A stretch of DNA of 64,000 nt, from sequence record OM386662.1. The stretch is one strand, 5' to 3'. Under the pieces are notes generated by a model. The model had not been told where the DNA came from and searched no databases. It saw only the letters and a program-made list of their open reading frames with translations. Below are positions 21,218 to 27,546 of this stretch, piece by piece; positions within the stretch are counted from its first letter, which is position 1, and each line of letters begins with the position of its first letter. The DNA comes from Escherichia phage vB_EcoM_ESCO47. A program made the translations under genes and the position numbers.

Positions 21218-21252
21218 TTTACAAACTCTTGAGAGCAGAGTATAATGCTCTC
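21218..21252 (+). promoter_or_regulatory. Sigma70-type promoter with -10 embedded in a palindrome
   Basis: TTTACA-N17-TATAAT; inverted repeat GAGAGCA / TGCTCTC brackets the -10. Confidence 0.5.
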
Positions 21253-21287: not shown

Positions 21288-21881
21288 ATGAACACACTGA
21301 AGAAACTTGTTGAATTCATCCGCACTAAACTGGGTACTGCTATGGCTAAAAATCTTACTGTCGAAGAACAGTATAACGCAGCTGCAGATAAGTTGATTAC
21401 CCAAATCAAAGAACTAAAAACGGCTTCTGTTAAATCTATTAATGAAGAAAAACGTATTCGCGAACTTGTTAATGAAAAGAACAAGCAAGCCGCTTCTAAG
21501 GAACGTGAAATTCGTAAGCTCCTGGCTGAAGGACAGGATGTTACCATGCATGCTAAGCTTGGTCTTCTGTATCGTCGAACTGCCGAACAACTTAATACAA
21601 AAGCTGATGGGTATGCCGCTATGCGAATTGAAATTGCTCGTAAGGTGGTTGAACTTGACGATGCTCGTCAGAATCTGGCAATCAAACTCGAATACATTCG
21701 TGAAACTCGAGCAGCCAATGCCCTTGGTATCTCTACGGCTGATGATGTAATTGAAATCGCTGCACTGACTAAGGTTGATATCGAAGACACTCTGACTCGT
21801 GTTGAAACGTTCAATGGCTCTCCAGCTGGTGTCGAAACCACTTCTGCTGATGTACAAGAATATATTAACTCTTTGAAATAA
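21288..21881 (+). CDS. Hypothetical coiled-coil protein
   Basis: Start set at MNTLKK with GAAAGG RBS; long predicted helical/coiled-coil region. Confidence 0.5.
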
Positions 21882-21889
21882 AATAATAC

Positions 21890-21911
21890 GGAGGACTCCG
21901 GTCCTCCTTTT
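21890..21911 (+). terminator. Intrinsic terminator
   Basis: GGAGGAC-TCCG-GTCCTCC followed by TTTT. Confidence 0.65.
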
Positions 21912-21930
21912 GGATAATAAAGGAGTTAAC

Positions 21931-22533
21931 ATGCGAAACCAAAATAATGATATTGACTCAATGTTCGAAGAGTTCCGAGATAAGGTAAATCCACCTACGT
22001 CTTTAGTTGATTCATTACGATATGTTGCAACCGGACGTAAATGGTACTGGTCGTCTTCTTATGAGACCACCGAGAAAACGGCTAGCCATAGCAGAAAATC
22101 TTTATTAGCCCCAGGTATTATGATTCATGATATCGGAGCTATTGCTAAACTAGTTGCAGACCATGATATTAGATTCACTGATTTCGTTGCTCCTACGTGG
22201 TCTGTTTGTTGTTTAAACACTGAATGGGAATATATCAGCGAACGCTCTGAAGATTATTATGGTTTTAGAGATAAGCTTCTGAGGTCTAATATGTTTTATA
22301 TCGATACAGAAGTTCTAGTCGATAATAAAAAATATTACTTTACGTTAATCATCGATTCTGAAACTATGTATGAAGGCAAGCCTTTGCTTAAAAGAGTTGA
22401 TGCTTTAAGTGCTATTGATGCGCTTTATGAAACTATGGTTGTTAGTCCTAATTTCACTAACAATTTAATCCTTGAGCAATTTATTATGGAATGTAGAGAA
22501 TATGTCAAAGCCAACCCTGTACATGCCAATTAA
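21931..22533 (+). CDS. Hypothetical protein
   Basis: Start set at MRNQNND after AAGGAG RBS; follows terminator hairpin. Confidence 0.5.
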   Translation: MRNQNNDIDSMFEEFRDKVNPPTSLVDSLRYVATGRKWYWSSSYETTEKTASHSRKSLLAPGIMIHDIGAIAKLVADHDIRFTDFVAPTWSVCCLNTEWEYISERSEDYYGFRDKLLRSNMFYIDTEVLVDNKKYYFTLIIDSETMYEGKPLLKRVDALSAIDALYETMVVSPNFTNNLILEQFIMECREYVKANPVHAN

Positions 22534-22897
22534 GCCCTGGGCATATGAATACAAGCGTAAATTAATCCCAAATGAAGTACTATTTGGCCCTATTTTAGCT
22601 TTAGCATTTTTAATCTTTATGATTATAGGAGCCGTTTTAGATTCTAGTGAAGTTATATCGTCTGATGCAGCATTTTCATTAATGTTCGTCGCACCACTTA
22701 TTGTACCGTTTTTATTAATGCCTATTAACTGGATGGGATATTGGTACCAAGGACGTCATCACAGAGCCAGATTAAGAGAATGGAAAGTTCAGTGCGCAAA
22801 AGCCCAAGCTCAGTATGATGAAGCTGTTAAAAAATACGAATACAATGAAGCCATGGAATTCGTTAAGGAAATAAGATGCAAAAGCCTCAACTCTTAA
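22502..22897 (+). CDS. Small membrane protein, FIKECR-tail family
   Basis: Start MSKPTLYMP after conserved junction GGAATGTAGAGAATATG; two TM segments; C-terminal EFVKEIRCK. Confidence 0.45.
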   Translation: MSKPTLYMPIKPWAYEYKRKLIPNEVLFGPILALAFLIFMIIGAVLDSSEVISSDAAFSLMFVAPLIVPFLLMPINWMGYWYQGRHHRARLREWKVQCAKAQAQYDEAVKKYEYNEAMEFVKEIRCKSLNS

Positions 22898-23235
22898 CCG
22901 TATGGCCTTCTCTTGGTGAGAACATTCTAATTTTTATTATGAGTATTGGCATGGGATTTGCCTTTGGATTAGTTGGATTTCTTATTGACAGCGTTGTGTT
23001 AGGATTTATAGGGAACACTGGTGGATTCACAGACCAATGGCAGGACTTACGGTATACCCAAGCCTTTGCATCCATCGCATCATTTTGTACTGTAGTCTAT
23101 TTTTACTACGATTTTATAAACCACAACAAGAAAAATAAAAAGGTTTACGCTTCTCAAATGATTAGTTATAATGAACTCCTAGCTAGACGTGAAAATGAAA
23201 CAATCGAAAACTTTATTAAGGAATGTAGAAAATGA
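22876..23235 (+). CDS. Small membrane protein, FIKECR-tail family
   Basis: AAGGA RBS; TM segments; ends ENFIKECRK. Confidence 0.5.
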   Translation: MQKPQLLTVWPSLGENILIFIMSIGMGFAFGLVGFLIDSVVLGFIGNTGGFTDQWQDLRYTQAFASIASFCTVVYFYYDFINHNKKNKKVYASQMISYNELLARRENETIENFIKECRK

Positions 23236-23537
23236 GTAAGATTATTGAAATTAAAGTACCAGAGTTTAATGATGCCAAATCCGCTTCAGATGCAATTTAT
23301 AAACTTCTGAATCAAGCTGAACGTATCGAAGAAGAAGCAACAAAGATCGCAGACCAATATGCCGTATCATTTTCTGTAGGTGATTATGGTAGCGGTCGTA
23401 CTTATTATCCTAAGGGTGAAATCGTATCCCAGTGGATGAAAAATGAAATTGAAAATAATGGTGGCGATGTTAAGCGTGAAGGTAATGGTTACGTTATTAC
23501 TGAAGGTGCTTGGGTTTCGTCTTCTGCGTTGTGCTAA
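23232..23537 (+). CDS. Hypothetical protein, GWVSSSxxC-tail paralog 1
   Basis: ATGA coupling; C-terminus GAWVSSSALC shared with the next two genes. Confidence 0.5.
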   Translation: MSKIIEIKVPEFNDAKSASDAIYKLLNQAERIEEEATKIADQYAVSFSVGDYGSGRTYYPKGEIVSQWMKNEIENNGGDVKREGNGYVITEGAWVSSSALC

Positions 23538-23546
23538 GGAATCACT

Positions 23547-23819
23547 ATGTCTAAAGAACAAACCGAACTGGCTGAAGCTGTAGCAAAAATCTATGCATCT
23601 ATTGAGGCAGCCAAAGAAATTGCTGATAAACAAAACACCACGTTTAATTTGTATCCGGCATATGGTATGGGCGGAACCTATCATTCACCAGGTTATCTTA
23701 AAGCCGACCTTGAACATCATACTAAACATGGTAACCCTGAATGGGCTGACGTTTACCAATATGACTACAACCTGAGCCTTGAAGATGGCGGTTGGGTTGC
23801 ATCTTCTCACACTTGCTAA
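23547..23819 (+). CDS. Hypothetical protein, GWVSSSxxC-tail paralog 2
   Basis: AAGGA RBS; C-terminus GGWVASSHTC. Confidence 0.5.
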   Translation: MSKEQTELAEAVAKIYASIEAAKEIADKQNTTFNLYPAYGMGGTYHSPGYLKADLEHHTKHGNPEWADVYQYDYNLSLEDGGWVASSHTC

Positions 23820-23828
23820 GGAAACCAT

Positions 23829-24026
23829 ATGTCTCGTGAATTAGATTGTGCTGTACGTACGGCAGTAGCTGCTCTGGAAAACCTGTTCCAAATTGCAACA
23901 GAAGAACGCGAAGAAGTTACATTATGGATTGAAGATAACGCAGGTCTGAATCTCCAGGACGCGATTTCATTATCCCACAATAGTATTACTGTTCAAGGCT
24001 GGGTATCATCTAGTTATTCTTGCTAA
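23829..24026 (+). CDS. Hypothetical protein, GWVSSSxxC-tail paralog 3
   Basis: AAGGA RBS; C-terminus QGWVSSSYSC. Confidence 0.5.
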   Translation: MSRELDCAVRTAVAALENLFQIATEEREEVTLWIEDNAGLNLQDAISLSHNSITVQGWVSSSYSC

Positions 24027-24030
24027 AACA

Positions 24031-24072
24031 GTTTACAACAAGATAGGGCTATGTTATAGTAGTCCTATCAAA
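24031..24072 (+). promoter_or_regulatory. T4-type early promoter
   Basis: GTTTAC ... TGTTATAGT ... CCTATCAA. Confidence 0.55.
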
Positions 24073-24088
24073 TTAAATGGAGTCCACA

Positions 24089-24328
24089 ATGATTTATTAC
24101 GAAAGTATCGGAACCGAAGTAGTTGCTAAAACTATTACTCGTGAAAAGTTTGCAAAGATATTCGATATGCGTTATAAAAAATCTGAACACAAAGGCATCC
24201 GATTCAAAGATGCGCACTGTACAATTTGCCCTTATAATGAAGACATAAATGGTACAATCGTTCCATTGGTAGAGGCTTCACATGATGACCTCTGGGATGA
24301 ATATAATATCGCATGTCGTGAAATTTAA
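24089..24328 (+). CDS. Hypothetical protein
   Basis: Start set at MIYYESIG after early promoter. Confidence 0.45.
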   Translation: MIYYESIGTEVVAKTITREKFAKIFDMRYKKSEHKGIRFKDAHCTICPYNEDINGTIVPLVEASHDDLWDEYNIACREI

Positions 24329-24353
24329 GTAATCTAAATTCGAGGAAATTATT

Positions 24354-25310
24354 ATGATGTTAGTTATTGGTTCTCGTGCACTTCACTATCACGGTCTTAT
24401 TGATTCTAGCGCTATTAAAAATAGTGATTGGGACTTTATTGCGGATCAAGGTTCTTGGAATGCATTCAAAAATCAAATGATGGGTGTATATGTTCACCAA
24501 GATAACCCTGATGTCCAAGTTTTCAAATGCTTCCATAATGGACGCGAAACTCATTTTGAAGCATATATTGTTCCGGCAATCACTAATGTCCGTGAATTAG
24601 TCGGTGAACTCACTCCTGAAGATTTCACGTCTTCTTATGACCTTTTAAAATACGCCAGGAAAAATTTGACTAAAGACCGTTTGAACGGGTTTTACTGGGC
24701 AACTCCTGAGATATGTCTTGCAATTAAGATGTCTCATCGTTTCAAGAAAAATAATCCATTCTTTTTAAAGACTATGAACCATATTCAGTATCTTCGTGGT
24801 AAAGGTGTTACACCGAACGATGAACTTACTGAAATTATGCTGAAACGCCAGAAAGAAACCTTGAATTATGCTCACCCAGTTCTTGACACTTCTAAAAGTG
24901 CGTTCTTTAAAGATGACATCTATACATATGACCATGATACTATTCATGAAGCCATTGCACTAACAGACCGTCCAGCGTATACATTTTATATGAAAGACGG
25001 TTCTGAAGTCATGACCTCACGCGAGAAGTTCGAATTGTTACCAGAAATGGTCAAATTGGCCGGTGTATACGAAGAATCATGTGTACTAGCATTAGAACGT
25101 TCTCAGATTCCTAATGACTTTAAAATTAACCCTGAAGCCAGTTTCATGATGGCATTGGAAAAAGTCTGTACAAGCATCACCTCCGGTTGGTTCCGTGAGT
25201 ATGCCTGGGAAAACTACAGCAAAGTAGTAAGTATGTACCAAAGCTTAGGACATGATGATTACATCAAACGTTTCAAACAAAATTTCCATATGGTAAAACC
25301 TTTCAAATAA
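24354..25310 (+). CDS. Predicted nucleotidyltransferase-fold protein
   Basis: N-terminal GSRALHYHG...SDWDFIAD fits the minimal nucleotidyltransferase GS...DxD signature; GAGGA RBS. Confidence 0.5.
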   Translation: MMLVIGSRALHYHGLIDSSAIKNSDWDFIADQGSWNAFKNQMMGVYVHQDNPDVQVFKCFHNGRETHFEAYIVPAITNVRELVGELTPEDFTSSYDLLKYARKNLTKDRLNGFYWATPEICLAIKMSHRFKKNNPFFLKTMNHIQYLRGKGVTPNDELTEIMLKRQKETLNYAHPVLDTSKSAFFKDDIYTYDHDTIHEAIALTDRPAYTFYMKDGSEVMTSREKFELLPEMVKLAGVYEESCVLALERSQIPNDFKINPEASFMMALEKVCTSITSGWFREYAWENYSKVVSMYQSLGHDDYIKRFKQNFHMVKPFK

Positions 25311-25322
25311 CTTCACAAAACT

Positions 25323-25363
25323 GTTTACAACATGATAGGACTATGTTATAGTAGTCCTATTAA
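25323..25363 (+). promoter_or_regulatory. T4-type early promoter
   Basis: GTTTAC ... TGTTATAGT ... CCTATTAA. Confidence 0.55.
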
Positions 25364-25380
25364 AACATGAGGAGAATATT

Positions 25381-25686
25381 ATGAAATTAGGCGAAACCAA
25401 CCGAATTGGCCTTTTAACAATATTTGCATCACCTTTTTACGCAGCCCTTTCTGTTGCAGTATTACAAAAGGCTTACGATATGGATGGTGTTCCTGGTTTT
25501 GTATTCTTATCACCGTTTTTATTATTCGTCGGAGCATTGTTATTATATGCAACTACCGGTTTAGACCATAATGTCTGGGTCAATTATAAATGTAAATTGT
25601 CTGAAGAAGAACACGCAGAAGCTCGTAAAAAAACTATTGAATCTACCAATCTAGAAAATTTCATTAAAGAATGTCGAGGAAAATAA
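25381..25686 (+). CDS. Small membrane protein, FIKECR-tail family
   Basis: GAGGAG RBS; TM segments; ends ENFIKECRGK. Confidence 0.5.
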   Translation: MKLGETNRIGLLTIFASPFYAALSVAVLQKAYDMDGVPGFVFLSPFLLFVGALLLYATTGLDHNVWVNYKCKLSEEEHAEARKKTIESTNLENFIKECRGK

Positions 25687-25687
25687 T

Positions 25688-26374
25688 ATGAATAGTTCTA
25701 AAGTGTTTAATAGTCAAGCTCGTGCAGTAGGTGGTTTTGCTCATGCGATTAAAAACGGCCAAATTAAAAACGAGACTATGTTCTTTAACTGCGATTTGAA
25801 TTTTGCTTTTGATAATGGCGGCCCAATTACTCGTAGCTTTATCCAAAATCTTCCTGACGATTGGAAAGACTCGGATGTAGTATTTGATTCACGAGTCCAC
25901 ATGCTGATGCCTGGTTGGTATCCTGCTATCCCAGGTTATCACCATGACGATGTACCACGCCCTGATATTCCAGTTGGTCAACACTTTATTACTGCAGGAC
26001 AACCTGACTATGACAATCCTCGCTATTTGTCTGAACATATTCTTGGACTTGTTAACGCTGATGTGTGTCCTACTCATTTTGCAACAGGAACTGCAGAGTT
26101 CAGTCAGATTCCTGATGGCGAACTTATCTATCGTCAGTGGCACAAAGAAGTCCTCGAAAAAATCGAAAAAGGTGAACTAGAGAAATGGGAAGCTCCAGAT
26201 CGTACTCTTCTTCAGTTTGATTGGCAAACATGGCACACTGGTTCTCGTGCAATTAGTAACGGATGGCGTTGGTTCGGACGTGTATCTCGTAATACAGACC
26301 GAGTTAAAAAGATTACCAATGAAATTCGTGTCAATGCTCAAGTTTATCTGGAATTCCCTATGGAAGGCTGGTAA
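25688..26374 (+). CDS. Hypothetical protein
   Basis: 228-aa ORF with GAGGA RBS; no confident domain. Confidence 0.5.
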   Translation: MNSSKVFNSQARAVGGFAHAIKNGQIKNETMFFNCDLNFAFDNGGPITRSFIQNLPDDWKDSDVVFDSRVHMLMPGWYPAIPGYHHDDVPRPDIPVGQHFITAGQPDYDNPRYLSEHILGLVNADVCPTHFATGTAEFSQIPDGELIYRQWHKEVLEKIEKGELEKWEAPDRTLLQFDWQTWHTGSRAISNGWRWFGRVSRNTDRVKKITNEIRVNAQVYLEFPMEGW

Positions 26375-26865
26375 TGATTAACAAAACATATTGGTCTAAT
26401 ATTGACGACGGCAATGAAGGTATTTCGTACTATTCAGTAGATTGGACAGGATGTCCATCCTACTTAGTGAAACGTATTTGCCAAGAATTTAAAATCAACC
26501 AGCCAGCAGGTATTATCGTGAACAGATACATTAATGGATATCAACCTATCGATGAAGTAATACGAACAACTCAAGCTGATCTTGAAAAGTTTTTCAATAA
26601 GTGCCAATGGATAACAGGATGGATTATATTTGTACCGTCGGTATGGTTTTTCAGTACTAAGGTGAGTTCTTTCGGTTTTGTTGATATTATCGCTATCTTA
26701 TTAGCATCTACTATTGTAAGTGTTGTTGGTGGCATCATTGGCGGCGGTACCGCCGCCATCATTATTAATCTTATTAAAAGTAGTTTACAAGAACATAAAG
26801 ACAAGATAAAAGCCAAGAATAATGAAGTTGAACGTTTTATTACCGAATGCAGGAATTTGAGATGA
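26374..26865 (+). CDS. Membrane protein, FIKECR-tail family
   Basis: TAATG coupling; Gly-rich TM segments; ends ERFITECRNLR. Confidence 0.5.
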   Translation: MINKTYWSNIDDGNEGISYYSVDWTGCPSYLVKRICQEFKINQPAGIIVNRYINGYQPIDEVIRTTQADLEKFFNKCQWITGWIIFVPSVWFFSTKVSSFGFVDIIAILLASTIVSVVGGIIGGGTAAIIINLIKSSLQEHKDKIKAKNNEVERFITECRNLR

Positions 26866-27098
26866 GTATAGCAATTTACATTAAGTCAGAATCATGTGAT
26901 AGTTATCTGTACACATACGATAAAGATGTGTCAGAAGAAAAAATCAAAGACGACCTTAATATGGACCTTGATATGTTCTGTCCTATTGCAGATTACAAAC
27001 TTGCGGTCTCTAATAGTGAAAGTCCATCTAAAGAAACGCGCATTGAAGAATTTATGTCCGAATTAATGGCCAAATCATGGAACAGAGATGATGAGTAA
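26862..27098 (+). CDS. Hypothetical protein
   Basis: ATGA-coupled start at MSIAIYIKSE. Confidence 0.45.
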   Translation: MSIAIYIKSESCDSYLYTYDKDVSEEKIKDDLNMDLDMFCPIADYKLAVSNSESPSKETRIEEFMSELMAKSWNRDDE

Positions 27099-27546
27099 GA
27101 AAAATAAAGTGAAAGAGCTATCAGCCGGTATTATTTTCCTTACCGAAGATAAAGAGTTATTCATGGGGCGTGTAACTGGTTCTCGTCCTAAAGGTGCATT
27201 AGCTCATCGGTGGGATATTCCTAAAGGCCGTGTCGAACCTGGCGAATCTCCTATTGAAGCCGCTATTCGTGAATGCGAAGAAGAAACTGGGTTTACACAG
27301 TATGATCCGGCCTTCCTGAAAGATCTAGGTGAACATCGATACTCAGATAATAAGAATATTCATCTGTTCTATTATACGATCCCTGTAGAGCACGAGCAAT
27401 TCAGACACAGTGTTTGTAGTGCTTATCATACATTCCCTGATGGAACTTCTATCCCAGAATTTGATGCATTTGCACTAATTAAACCGAGTCAATGGGAATA
27501 TGTAATGGGTAAATCTTTATATAAGGTGCTCACTGCCATTCTGTAA
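27088..27546 (+). CDS. nudE: Nudix hydrolase NudE
   Basis: Nudix box GESPIEAAIRECEEETGF; immediately upstream of e as in T4 (e.1). Confidence 0.85.
   Translation: MMSKKNKVKELSAGIIFLTEDKELFMGRVTGSRPKGALAHRWDIPKGRVEPGESPIEAAIRECEEETGFTQYDPAFLKDLGEHRYSDNKNIHLFYYTIPVEHEQFRHSVCSAYHTFPDGTSIPEFDAFALIKPSQWEYVMGKSLYKVLTAIL

What the first reader, a model, noticed from the sequence alone, without database searches (positions are those of the whole stretch)
22450..26870. Family of small membrane proteins with conserved FIKECR tail and a conserved gene junction
Four membrane-protein ORFs end with (E/R)(N/R)FI(K/T)ECR (ENFIKECRK at 23235, ENFIKECRGK at 25686, ERFITECRNLR at 26865, EFVKEIRCK at 22897), and the same motif occurs near the end of ORF 21931-22533 where the nucleotide string GGAATGTAGAGAATATG also forms the ribosome-binding site and start of the overlapping next gene. 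The conservation may therefore be at the nucleotide level (a translational coupling or initiation signal) with the peptide motif as a by-product, or a true shared cytoplasmic tail.
Basis: seen in the sequence. Interest (0 to 1): 0.5.

Follow-up and report, generated by a model that had tools for sequence, protein, structure and literature searches.

The report
Shared protein tail in T4-like phage
Five neighbouring early genes of an RB69-like T4-type phage (homologues of T4 e.5, e.4, e.3 and e.2, plus one extra gene) encode proteins ending in the same short helical motif (hydrophobic-x-x-F-I/V-x-E-C-R); selection keeps the peptide rather than the DNA, the next gene's ribosome-binding site merely sits on its purine-rich codons, and its function is unknown.

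Summary
In the 64-kb window, F[IV]xEC[RK] occurs four times against 0.10 expected. All four are in frame and within 11 codons of a stop. A fifth variant (FVKEIRC) ends the gene in between.

The window is an RB69-like Mosigvirus. The genes are T4 e.5, e.4, e.3, RB69ORF133c and e.2, upstream of nudE and e.

The constraint acts on the protein:
- Orthologues at 18-47% identity in at least six lineages keep F, I/V, C and R/K.
- These residues use all Ile codons, both Phe and Cys codons, and five Arg codons.
- Synonymous divergence inside the motif equals the rest of the gene (0.23 against 0.27).
- e.3 and ORF133c share ENFIKECR, yet 4 of 8 codons differ.

The downstream Shine-Dalgarno sequence always lies in the tail, but at shifting positions. 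It shapes only the variable residues and the Arg codon choice.

The tail follows a two-helix membrane hairpin on the cytoplasmic side, or ends soluble proteins. I infer a common docking helix; this is untested.

The repeated tail-plus-start joint is also a deletion and insertion breakpoint (T2, ZX14). Interest is modest: the motif appears undescribed and sits on function-unknown accessory proteins.

The parts
21931..22533 (+). Homologue of T4 e.5 (Pfam Phage_T4_Y06P): a soluble 200-aa protein. Its motif FIMECR lies in the C-terminal helix, 11 residues from the end.
   Evidence: phrog_2607; PF26876. The AF2 model places helix 179-194 over the motif. No hydrophobic segment was found.
22480..22497 (+). 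Tail motif F-I-M-E-C-R of e.5. F184, C188, R189 and K193 are invariant in the family.
22488..22504 (+). Junction string GGAATGTAGAGAATATG: a weak Shine-Dalgarno-like stretch plus the ATG of e.4 (22502), lying inside the e.5 tail. Its nucleotides are identical in T4-type and RB69-type phages.
22502..22897 (+). Homologue of T4 e.4 (Pfam Phage_T4_Y06O): 131 aa, two transmembrane helices, N-in/C-in by the positive-inside rule, with a cytoplasmic tail ending EFVKEIRCKSLNS*.
   Evidence: (phrog_2604)
22859..22879 (+). Tail motif F-V-K-E-I-R-C of e.4. TAAGGA (22864-22869) within it is the Shine-Dalgarno for e.3, whose ATG is at 22876.
22876..23235 (+). Homologue of T4 e.3: 119 aa, two hydrophobic helices, with a cytoplasmic tail ending ENFIKECRK*.
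   Evidence: (phrog_2330). tblastn finds it in 687 phage records.
23212..23234 (+). Tail motif F-I-K-E-C-R of e.3 together with TAAGGA (23217-23222) and the ATG (23232) of the next gene. The stop and start overlap as ATGA.
25381..25686 (+). Homologue of RB69ORF133c: 101 aa, two transmembrane helices, with a tail ending ENFIKECRGK*.
   Evidence: (phrog_9798, with a weak hit to the C-terminal part of the e.2 family phrog_2203)
25660..25690 (+). Tail motif F-I-K-E-C-R of the ORF133c homologue. Here the Shine-Dalgarno GAGGA (25676-25680) is made by the Arg-Gly codons, and the ATG of the 228-aa gene is at 25688.
26374..26865 (+). Homologue of T4 e.2 (Pfam Phage_T4_Y06M): 163 aa, with a conserved N-terminal domain, a hydrophobic hairpin and a cytoplasmic tail ending ERFITECRNLR*.
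   Evidence: (phrog_2203)
26836..26864 (+). Tail motif F-I-T-E-C-R of e.2. The Shine-Dalgarno AGGA (26851-26854) is made by the Arg(AGG)-Asn codons, and the ATG of the next gene is at 26862 (ATGA overlap).
   Evidence: F155, C159 and R160 are invariant.

Best explanation
The conserved element is a peptide. It is a short C-terminal amphipathic alpha-helix with the pattern hydrophobic(-3)-x-x-[F/W]-[I/V]-x-x-[C, rarely I/L/V/S]-[R/K], followed by 1-5 mostly basic residues.

It ends a set of early, dispensable proteins of the T4 'e cluster' (e.5, e.4, e.3, ORF133c, e.2, and further members in other genera). In the four membrane members it follows a two-helix hairpin and a 30-50-residue charged linker, so it sits on the cytoplasmic side. 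In e.5 and some 90-100-aa proteins it ends a soluble domain.

Shown here:
- Purifying selection acts on the amino acids, not on the nucleotides.
- The next gene's Shine-Dalgarno and start codon are always embedded in or just after the tail, but in at least two different registers. They shape only the variable positions 3-4 and 6-7 and the choice of Arg codon.
- The repeated tail-plus-start joint is used as a breakpoint when cassettes are lost or gained.

Inferred, not shown:
- The helix is a common docking or oligomerisation module. It would let interchangeable membrane-anchored or soluble 'heads' bind one shared partner (a host or conserved phage protein) at the inner face of the membrane.
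- e.3, e.4, ORF133c and the C-terminal half of e.2 arose by duplication, with the tail as the most constrained part.
For: Motif is real and specific to the cluster.

Protein-level constraint:
- Orthologues in Tequatro-, Mosig-, Gapriver-, Dhaka- and Kanagawavirus and three metagenomic lineages keep the motif at 18-47% overall identity.
- F, C and R are among the 13-19 invariant columns of the e.2 and e.5 alignments.
- All 62 e.2 clusters, and every full-length distant e.2 homologue among the 25 found in 1.84 billion representatives, end [FW][IV]xxCR.
- Codon usage at the conserved residues is fully degenerate. Synonymous divergence is 0.232 in the motif against 0.266 elsewhere.
- The e.3 and ORF133c tails are identical peptides (ENFIKECR) with 4 of 8 codons different.

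Shine-Dalgarno is a passenger:
- With the ATG at +17 to +20 the Shine-Dalgarno is TAAGGA, GAGGA or AAGGA in codons 2-4.
- With the ATG at +26 to +28 it is AGGA or GAGGA in codons 6-7.
- In three e.5-like genes it lies 30-37 nt downstream of the Phe codon.

Helix and sidedness:
- AF2 puts the e.5 motif in a terminal helix with pLDDT about 85.
- The hydrophobic residues at -3, 0, +1 and +4 fall within a 100-degree arc, and muH is 0.35-0.79.
- K/R-rich segments follow the last hydrophobic helix in all four membrane members (sequence reading).

Partial paralogy:
- The e.4 HMM hits e.3 orthologues over the full length, and the reverse holds (E about 1e-4 in a database of about 1000 ORFs).
- hhalign gives e.3-e.4 86% probability over 40 columns.
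- The e.2 HMM hits the extra ZX14 paralogue at 1e-6.

Interchangeability of members: VR7 lacks e.5, Dhakavirus lacks e.4, T2 lacks e.2, T4 e.2 is frameshifted, phiE142 lacks e.3, and OP555981 carries an e.4::e.2 fusion. Every surviving member keeps the tail.

Breakpoints in the tail: the T2 deletion of e.2 shows a 22-nt overlap of the e.3 and e.2 tails. The ZX14/Entb45 indel of an e.2 paralogue shows a 28-nt overlap.
Against: - No partner is known, and none could be tested: no multimer prediction was possible and there is no experimental literature.
- The e.2 model is poor (pLDDT 55). The e.5 model is only moderate (pLDDT 66). In e.5 the helix may simply pack on its own domain rather than be free to dock.
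- Beyond the tail, similarity among e.2, ORF133c and e.3/e.4 is weak (hhalign matches of 11-16 columns). Common descent of the whole set is therefore not established.
- At the e.5/e.4 junction there is real extra nucleotide conservation (0 of 135 synonymous differences).
- Topology rests on the positive-inside rule only.
- Strict invariance of Cys and Arg in e.2 and e.5 is more than a generic packing helix needs. It could point to chemistry (a metal or a modification) rather than docking.
Confidence: 0.55

Rival explanations
1. Nucleotide-level element: the string is conserved as a translation-initiation or coupling signal for the downstream gene (Shine-Dalgarno, spacer, ATG, overlapping stop), and the peptide is a by-product.
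For: - Every tail contains the downstream Shine-Dalgarno, and most stops overlap the next start as ATGA or TAATG.
- At the e.5/e.4 junction about 25 nt are identical between T4 and RB69-type phages, with no synonymous change.
- Residues at positions 3-4 are K-E, E-E or K-G (AAGGAA, GAGGAA, AAAGGA) exactly when the Shine-Dalgarno sits there. Arg is AGG, or is followed by GGA, when the Shine-Dalgarno sits at codons 6-7.
Against: - The conserved residues F, I/V and C are not purine-rich.
- All synonymous codons are used at F, I, C and R.
- Synonymous divergence equals the gene background in e.2 and e.4.
- The Shine-Dalgarno and ATG register shifts by 9 nt between genes. In three e.5-like genes the Shine-Dalgarno lies outside the motif.
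- The downstream genes are unrelated to each other (e.4, e.3, phrog_899, phrog_1843, ORF130c, nudE, e.2).
Confidence: 0.05
2. In-plane membrane anchor: the tail is a membrane-targeting amphipathic helix like those of MinD or FtsA. It would hold soluble e.5-type proteins, and the C-termini of the membrane members, on the inner leaflet.
For: - The helix is at the extreme C-terminus, is amphipathic and has an aromatic F/W plus aliphatic residues flanked by K/R. muH of 0.35-0.79 is comparable to FtsA at 0.65.
- F-to-W replacements occur in distant e.2 homologues.
- The same tail occurs on soluble proteins of the same cluster.
Against: - Net charge of the 12-residue tails in this window is -2 to 0, against +3 for the MinD and FtsA anchors.
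- Acidic residues flank the hydrophobic face.
- There are only about four hydrophobic residues.
- Invariant Cys and Arg are not expected for a lipid-binding helix, which tolerates conservative exchange.
- The membrane members do not need an extra anchor.
Confidence: 0.18
3. Recombination linker: the repeated tail-plus-start joint is maintained because it lets gene cassettes be excised, inserted or swapped in frame. This would be a coding counterpart of the promoter-stem-loop cassettes (PeSLs) of T4-type hyperplastic regions, with the peptide function secondary.
For: - Two independent indels have both ends in tail repeats: T2 lacking e.2 (22-nt overlap) and ZX14 against Entb45 (28-nt overlap).
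- Dhakavirus e.5-like and VR7 e.4 share the same ...NGTA* joint to e.3.
- The cluster lies in a hyperplastic region with frequent gain and loss.
- Recombination between short conserved cassettes is documented for T4-type phages (PMC2839356; PMC4122927).
Against: - Paralogous tails within one genome are mostly too diverged in nucleotides for efficient homologous exchange. For example, e.3 and ORF133c differ at 4 of 8 motif codons.
- Peptide identity is kept despite that divergence, which a DNA-level function does not require.
- Another deletion in the same cluster (the e.4::e.2 fusion) used an unrelated 7-nt microhomology. Tail breakpoints may therefore be opportunistic and filtered by selection for intact ORFs.
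Confidence: 0.1
4. Chemical or regulatory site: the invariant Cys-Arg pair near the C-terminus is a site of modification, metal binding or proteolytic recognition. Examples would be a degron for a host AAA+ protease or a target of the T4 ADP-ribosyltransferases.
For: - Cys and Arg are invariant across all e.2 and e.5 homologues found.
- The C-termini are basic.
- A neighbouring paralogue family (23232-24026) also has an invariant C-terminal Cys.
Against: - Position 5 is I, S, V or L in e.4 and in several e.3-like or other membrane members. Cys chemistry is therefore not universal.
- No similarity to known degrons or modification motifs was tested or found.
- This is purely inferential.
Confidence: 0.1

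Closest known systems
Pfam families Phage_T4_Y06M (PF26896, e.2), Phage_T4_Y06O (PF26873, e.4) and Phage_T4_Y06P (PF26876, e.5); PHROGs 2203, 2604, 2330, 9798 and 2607
   Same: These are the same proteins. The window genes are orthologues of the family members.
   Different: The databases treat them as separate function-unknown families. The tail shared across them is not represented as a common element. The copy of Pfam-A scanned here did not yet contain these models.
[quoted passage not shown] 2010, PMC2839356; Comeau et al. 2014, PMC4122927)
   Same: Both are short repeated sequences at gene boundaries in the same kind of plastic region, acting as breakpoints for gain and loss of non-essential genes. 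The early-promoter-like repeats at 24032 and 25324 in this region may themselves be such cassettes.
   Different: The tail repeat is coding sequence plus a ribosome-binding site, not a promoter plus terminator. It is conserved at the peptide level, and its paralogous copies are often diverged in DNA.
C-terminal membrane-targeting amphipathic helices of MinD and FtsA (from general knowledge)
   Same: Both are short amphipathic helices at the extreme C-terminus, with aromatic and aliphatic residues next to Lys/Arg.
   Different: The tails here carry acidic residues and a net charge of -2 to 0 in this phage, against +3. They also have invariant Cys-Arg and mostly sit on proteins that are already membrane-embedded.
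Shared C-terminal docking peptides of T4 proteins that bind one hub, e.g. the gp45 clamp-binding tails of gp43, gp33 and gp55 (from general knowledge)
   Same: The concept matches: unrelated T4 proteins end in a similar short hydrophobic peptide that plugs into one common partner.
   Different: There is no sequence resemblance, and no partner has been identified here. This is an analogy of mechanism only.
Overlapping stop/start (ATGA) junctions with the Shine-Dalgarno inside the upstream gene, common in T4 early operons (from general knowledge)
   Same: All five junctions are of this type.
   Different: Such junctions normally leave no conserved peptide. Here a peptide is conserved independently of where the Shine-Dalgarno and start fall.

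Membership tests
Nucleotide-level translational coupling or initiation element | Conservation of nucleotides beyond what the encoded residues require (suppressed synonymous change) | tested here: not met
   0.232 in the motif against 0.266 in the rest of the genes. All synonymous codons of F, I, C and R are used. The exception is the e.5/e.4 overlap (0 of 135).
Nucleotide-level translational coupling or initiation element | Fixed register between the conserved string and the downstream start codon | tested here: not met
   the ATG lies at +17 to +20, +22, +26 to +28, or +40 to +46 nt from the Phe codon. The Shine-Dalgarno lies in codons 2-4, in codons 6-7, or outside the motif.
Single paralogous family of small membrane proteins | Significant sequence similarity outside the shared tail | tested here: inconclusive
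   e.3 and e.4 are related: HMM cross-hits are full length at E about 1e-4 in a small database, and hhalign gives 86% over 40 columns. The e.2 HMM hits the ZX14 paralogue at 1e-6. For ORF133c, e.2 and e.5 against the others, the match is confined to 11-16 tail columns.
Single paralogous family of small membrane proteins | Common architecture: a two-helix hairpin with a cytoplasmic C-terminal tail | tested here: met
   Hydropathy and the positive-inside reading of the sequences support this for e.4, e.3, ORF133c and e.2. e.5 does not share the architecture (it is soluble).
Conserved protein-level short C-terminal motif | Presence in orthologues across divergent lineages, with the conserved residues among the most invariant columns | tested here: met
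Conserved protein-level short C-terminal motif | A defined binding partner or function for the motif | not testable with these tools
   No multimer prediction was available and there are no experimental data. Literature searches found nothing.
Membrane-targeting amphipathic helix (MinD/FtsA type) | Amphipathic helix at the extreme C-terminus | tested here: met
   muH is 0.35-0.79. A helix is predicted in e.5.
Membrane-targeting amphipathic helix (MinD/FtsA type) | Net positive charge for binding anionic lipid | tested here: not met
   the window tails are -2 to 0. Some distant e.2 tails are +2 to +3.
PeSL recombination cassette | Sigma-70-like early promoter plus a terminator stem-loop | tested here: not met
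   No promoter or terminator match falls on any tail. The promoter-like repeats lie elsewhere (21218, 24032, 25324), and the hairpin is at 21890-21907.
PeSL recombination cassette | Indel breakpoints fall in the repeated element | tested here: met
   T2 and ZX14/Entb45. These are only two cases, and no genome-wide statistics were done.

The most novel reading that the evidence does not exclude
The tail would be a dual-purpose module.

As a peptide, it is a universal plug. Through it a rotating repertoire of early T4-type proteins (different membrane hairpins or soluble heads) engages one hub at the cytoplasmic face of the host membrane. The purpose could be superinfection exclusion, counter-defence or envelope remodelling.

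As DNA, together with the embedded start of the next gene, it is an in-frame recombination joint. It lets heads be lost, duplicated or exchanged without breaking either the plug or downstream translation. That would make it a protein-coding counterpart of PeSL cassettes.
Probability: 0.15. Interest if true: 0.6.

Novelty: new member of a known kind. Interest (0 to 1): 0.35.

Why it matters
The e.2-e.8 genes are among the many T4 early genes without a function, and databases file them as unrelated families. A shared, strongly selected cytoplasmic tail links five or more of them. It gives a concrete handle for experiments: a 10-residue peptide with three near-invariant positions, usable for pull-downs, point mutants and multimer modelling.

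The locus is also a clean worked example of how overlapping signals divide a sequence. The peptide fixes F, I/V, C and R. The ribosome-binding site of the next gene takes whatever freedom is left in the K/E/G/R codons. The resulting repeat then serves as a breakpoint for gene loss and gain.

The finding does not overturn anything, and the function remains inferred.

Tried and rejected
- **Pfam-A, NCBIfam and PHROGs on all cluster proteins.** These gave only function-unknown phage families. The weak hits (Yip1, SecE, ExcA and others) are far below cut-off and were rejected.
- **The search for related loci in IMG/VR with e.3.** It returned only two loci.
- **The search for homologous proteins with e.3 alone.** It returned only near-identical proteins.
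- **Structure of e.2.** pLDDT was 55, so the model was unusable.
- **A tail-only profile search of the 5.8-billion database** was abandoned. The E-value ceiling of 10 is out of reach for a profile of about 20 bits.
- **The idea that the highly conserved neighbour e.6 is PspA-like and could be the hub.** Pfam, NCBIfam, and single-sequence and profile searches of PDB sequences gave no support.
- **'Sulfurtransferase' labels on e.3 and e.4 in some GenBank records**. No rhodanese or other domain match supports them.
- **A start-stop mini-ORF (ATGTAG) inside GAATGTAGA.** This was considered from the sequence and rejected, because it is absent from the TGC-AGG and TGT-CGA versions.
- **Literature searches** for the e genes, the Y06 names and T4 small membrane proteins found nothing relevant.
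nudE most likely starts at the ATG inside the tail.

Full report
**What the region is.** The window is a T4-type phage of the RB69 group (Mosigvirus). Positions 21900-27100 match 346 phage records, the best at 96.7% identity (FP43) and RB69 at 95.8%. In RB69 the matching genes are annotated e.5, e.4, e.3, ORF139c to ORF132c, e.2 and ORF130c, followed by nudE and the lysozyme gene e. The five ORFs of the finding are therefore:
- the e.5 homologue (21931-22533);
- the e.4 homologue (22502-22897);
- the e.3 homologue (22876-23235);
- the RB69ORF133c homologue (25381-25686);
- the e.2 homologue (26374-26865).

All lie on the + strand in an early-type transcription unit. Promoter-like sites are at 21218, 24032 and 25324.

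**Check of the observation.** F[IV].EC[RK] occurs four times in the six-frame translation, against 0.10 expected (P = 4e-6). All four hits are in these genes, 1-11 residues before the stop. The e.4 variant FVKEIRC sits between them. A relaxed pattern over all ORF ends of the window finds only these five and one unrelated weak hit. A strict pattern over the window plus 99.5 kb more of the closest genome finds none elsewhere. Four of the proteins have two strongly hydrophobic helices. e.5 has none.

**Is the motif kept in homologues?** Yes, and over a wide range.
- T4: e.3 ends EFVIDCRKIK, e.4 ends KFVKESRCKSQS, and e.5 ends KFVKECREYVK....
- Other Tequatroviruses: e.2 ends NFITECRKLK.
- VR7 and Dhakaviruses: EFIKEIRNGTA, TFIKECKS, SFIEECRK and RFIAECREYAK....
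- Kanagawaviruses: DFVDQCR..., LFIKNVRRK, KFVKGCRNGRN, an extra e.2-like paralogue ending DFVKGCRNGHN, and soluble 92-99-aa proteins with KFIKQCR or SFIQMCR.

In the e.5 alignment (18-22% identity to the Kanagawavirus members) F184, C188, R189 and K193 are among 19 invariant columns. In e.2, F155, C159 and R160 are among 13. All 62 e.2 clusters from the 5.8-billion-protein collection keep F-[IV]-x-[EG]-C-R.

A profile search of 1.84 billion representatives finds only 25 clusters. Every full-length distant member ends [FW]-I-[KE]-x-C-R. In two further metagenomic lineages position 5 is sometimes Leu or Ile (FAETLRK, FVDSLKK, FIKLLK).

Aligning 23 tails on the Phe shows a further hydrophobic residue at -3. 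The general pattern is hydrophobic-x-x-[FW]-[IV]-x-x-[C or aliphatic]-[RK].

Three results bear on it.

First, in codon alignments of four ortholog groups, I took sites where two sequences have the same residue. The fraction with a different codon was:

| Group | In the motif | Rest of the gene |
|---|---|---|
| e.2 | 0.353 | 0.368 |
| e.4 | 0.277 | 0.253 |
| e.3 | 0.163 | 0.260 |
| e.5 | 0 of 135 | 0.195 |
| All | 0.232 | 0.266 |

The conserved residues use TTT/TTC, ATT/ATC/ATA, TGT/TGC and AGA/AGG/CGA/CGT/CGC.

Second, within this window e.3 and ORF133c encode the identical octapeptide ENFIKECR with four synonymous differences (GAAAACTTTATTAAGGAATGTAGA against GAAAATTTCATTAAAGAATGTCGA).

Third, the downstream start is not in a fixed register.
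- The ATG is 17-20 nt after the first base of the Phe codon when the Shine-Dalgarno is TAAGGA, GAGGA or AAGGA in codons 2-4.
- It is 26-28 nt after when the Shine-Dalgarno is AGGA or GAGGA made from the Arg codon and the next one.
- In the e.5-like genes of Dhaka- and Kanagawaviruses the Shine-Dalgarno lies 30-37 nt beyond the Phe codon, yet F..CR is kept.

The genes that follow the tails are unrelated to one another. The nucleotide-signal reading is therefore refuted as the cause of the motif.

What remains of it is a secondary imprint.
- Positions 3-4 are K-E, E-E or K-G exactly when they have to spell the Shine-Dalgarno, and are more variable otherwise.
- Arg is AGG, or is followed by GGA, when the Shine-Dalgarno sits there.
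- At the e.5/e.4 junction the e.4 initiation region and, from 22502, the e.4 reading frame lie on and just after the motif. That junction is frozen between T4-type and RB69-type phages.

**Anatomy and sidedness.** In e.4, e.3, ORF133c and e.2 the last hydrophobic helix is followed by a Lys/Arg-rich stretch (for example NHNKKNKK and YQGRHHRARLR). Next comes a 30-50-residue charged segment, then the motif. By the positive-inside rule this gives an N-in/C-in hairpin with the tail in the cytoplasm; this is inference. e.2 has in addition a conserved N-terminal domain (W7, D11, G16, W24, C27 invariant).

AlphaFold2 places the e.5 motif in a terminal helix (residues 179-194, pLDDT about 85 within a model of mean 66 and pTM 0.71). 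On a helical wheel the residues at -3, 0, +1 and +4 fall within 100 degrees. muH is 0.35-0.79. The net charge of the window tails is -2 to 0, unlike the +3 of the MinD and FtsA membrane anchors.

**Relatedness of the carriers.** Each protein falls in a different PHROG. Pfam models for e.2, e.4 and e.5 are separate: Phage_T4_Y06M, Phage_T4_Y06O and Phage_T4_Y06P.
- Local HMMs connect e.4 and e.3 over their full length. E is about 1e-4 in a database of about 1000 ORFs, which would not be significant in a large one. hhalign gives 86% probability over 40 columns.
- The e.2 HMM finds the ZX14 paralogue at 1e-6.
- For ORF133c, e.2 and e.5 against the rest, the profile matches cover only the tail.

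Duplication explains part of the set. For the rest, ancient common origin and acquisition of the tail by recombination cannot be told apart.

**The junction as a breakpoint.** Three deletions or insertions were examined.
- T2 lacks e.2. Its e.3 tail is a chimera: blastn segments to wV7 overlap by 22 nt, and that stretch matches both the e.3 and the e.2 tail (GATTGYAGGAAA..AAATGA). The e.2-type end is joined directly to nudE.
- ZX14 has an extra e.2-like gene between e.2 and nudE that Entb45 lacks. The alignment segments overlap by 28 nt in the tail repeat TTAAAGGATGCCGTAATGG.
- A third deletion in the cluster (phage OP555981, e.4::e.2 in-frame fusion) used an unrelated 7-nt microhomology.

Tails are thus used as breakpoints but are not the only ones. 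This resembles the role of PeSL cassettes in T4-type hyperplastic regions (PMC2839356; PMC4122927). The difference is that here the repeat is coding.

Members are individually dispensable in nature:
- VR7 has no e.5.
- Dhakaviruses have no e.4.
- T2 has no e.2.
- The T4 reference e.2 carries two frameshifts, with the tail and the nudE junction intact.
- phiE142 keeps only the last 30 codons of e.3.

**Mechanism proposed.** The shown steps are three: a peptide-level conserved amphipathic C-terminal helix on the cytoplasmic side; a ribosome-binding site riding on it; and breakpoint use.

The inferred step is function. I favour a common docking or oligomerisation helix, through which interchangeable heads reach one partner. 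The reasons are:
- The same tail is on unrelated soluble and membrane proteins of one cluster.
- Any single member can be lost while the survivors keep the tail.
- Cys and Arg are too invariant for a lipid anchor.
- The charge is wrong for one.

The rivals are a membrane anchor, a recombination linker as the primary function, and a modification or degron site. They are listed with their tests. No partner, phenotype or publication was found. Fold searches with e.5 gave nothing significant beyond uncharacterised T4-like phage proteins.

**Verdict.** The 'nucleotide signal' half is refuted except as a secondary imprint.

The motif appears to be undescribed, and it joins protein families that databases keep apart. 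However, it sits on accessory proteins of unknown role, and the mechanism is inferred. Interest is modest (0.35).

Noticed in passing
window 23232-23537, 23547-23819, 23829-24026 (+): Three tandem small soluble ORFs all end G-(A)-W-V-(S/A)-S-S-x-x-C followed by the stop (phrog_899 twice, phrog_4882). This is a second paralogue family with an invariant Cys as the very last residue. It is present in 3-6 tandem copies in VR7, Dhaka- and Kanagawaviruses and in metagenomic lineage L018 (1502-3153). Its function is unknown.
   Followed up: partly
window 24027-24080 and 25318-25372 (+): There are two nearly identical stretches of about 55 nt (GTTTACAAC..GATAGG.CTATGTTATAGTAGTCCTAT). They carry T4-early-promoter-like hexamers (TTTACA, 17 nt, TATAGT with an upstream TG) just before ORFs 24077 and 25381. 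They are possible PeSL-type cassettes flanking the DUF7277/DUF7275 gene.
   Followed up: partly
window 26739-26758 (+), inside e.2: A perfect 20-nt GC-rich palindrome, TGGCGGCGGTACCGCCGCCA, lies in an otherwise AT-rich gene. It encodes the GGGTAA stretch of the transmembrane region and was flagged as terminator-like.
   Followed up: no
window 21288-21881 (+) and hairpin 21890-21907: The e.6 homologue (197 aa, predicted helical) is very strongly conserved: 64-88% identity across genera in which e.5 is only about 20% identical. It is always immediately upstream of e.5 and is followed by a GC-rich hairpin plus a T-run. There is no Pfam, NCBIfam or PDB sequence match. A PspA-like idea found no support.
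   Followed up: partly
L007 (T4 NC_000866) e.2 to nudE, record 67490-67960: The T4 reference e.2 (102 aa) is a pseudogene relative to wV7, PhiZZ6 and IsaacDaniel (162 aa). It has two compensating frameshifts (one base lost in an A-run, one base gained in TCTGGGAT). The C-terminal tail NFITECRKLK and the nudE junction are still readable in frame.
   Followed up: yes
L020 3001-3321 (phage OP555981.1): A natural in-frame fusion joins the e.4 N-terminus to the e.2 C-terminal half (106 aa; hits both Pfam Y06O and Y06M) and deletes e.3. The junction is at a 7-nt microhomology, TCCTGTG. The same protein is seen on 5 contigs.
   Followed up: yes
L001 3124 (RB69 e.4), L009 7542 (Entb45 nudE): Two start codons are probably mis-annotated. 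RB69 e.4 is annotated from the second ATG, but T4 has only the first (window 22502). Entb45 nudE more likely starts at the ATG inside the e.2 tail (MAVIKKEVSAG...), as in ZX14.
   Followed up: partly
L006 5001-5090 (phiE142), also p000v and LF82-35: These phages keep only the last 30 codons of e.3 (97-100% identical), as a remnant after e.4. This is a deletion of most of e.3 that left the tail and the downstream start in place.
   Followed up: partly
window 24354-25310 and 25688-26374 (+): A DUF7277 plus DUF7275 protein (318 aa) and a very conserved 228-aa protein (phrog_1843, whose stop overlaps the e.2 start as TAATG) travel with the full-length e.2 in Mosig-, Dhaka-, Gapriver- and Kanagawaviruses. 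Both are absent from Tequatroviruses.
   Followed up: no
GenBank records OL964745, MK962756, MW749000 and others: e.3 and e.4 are labelled 'sulfurtransferase' in several deposited genomes. No domain search here supports that name.
   Followed up: partly
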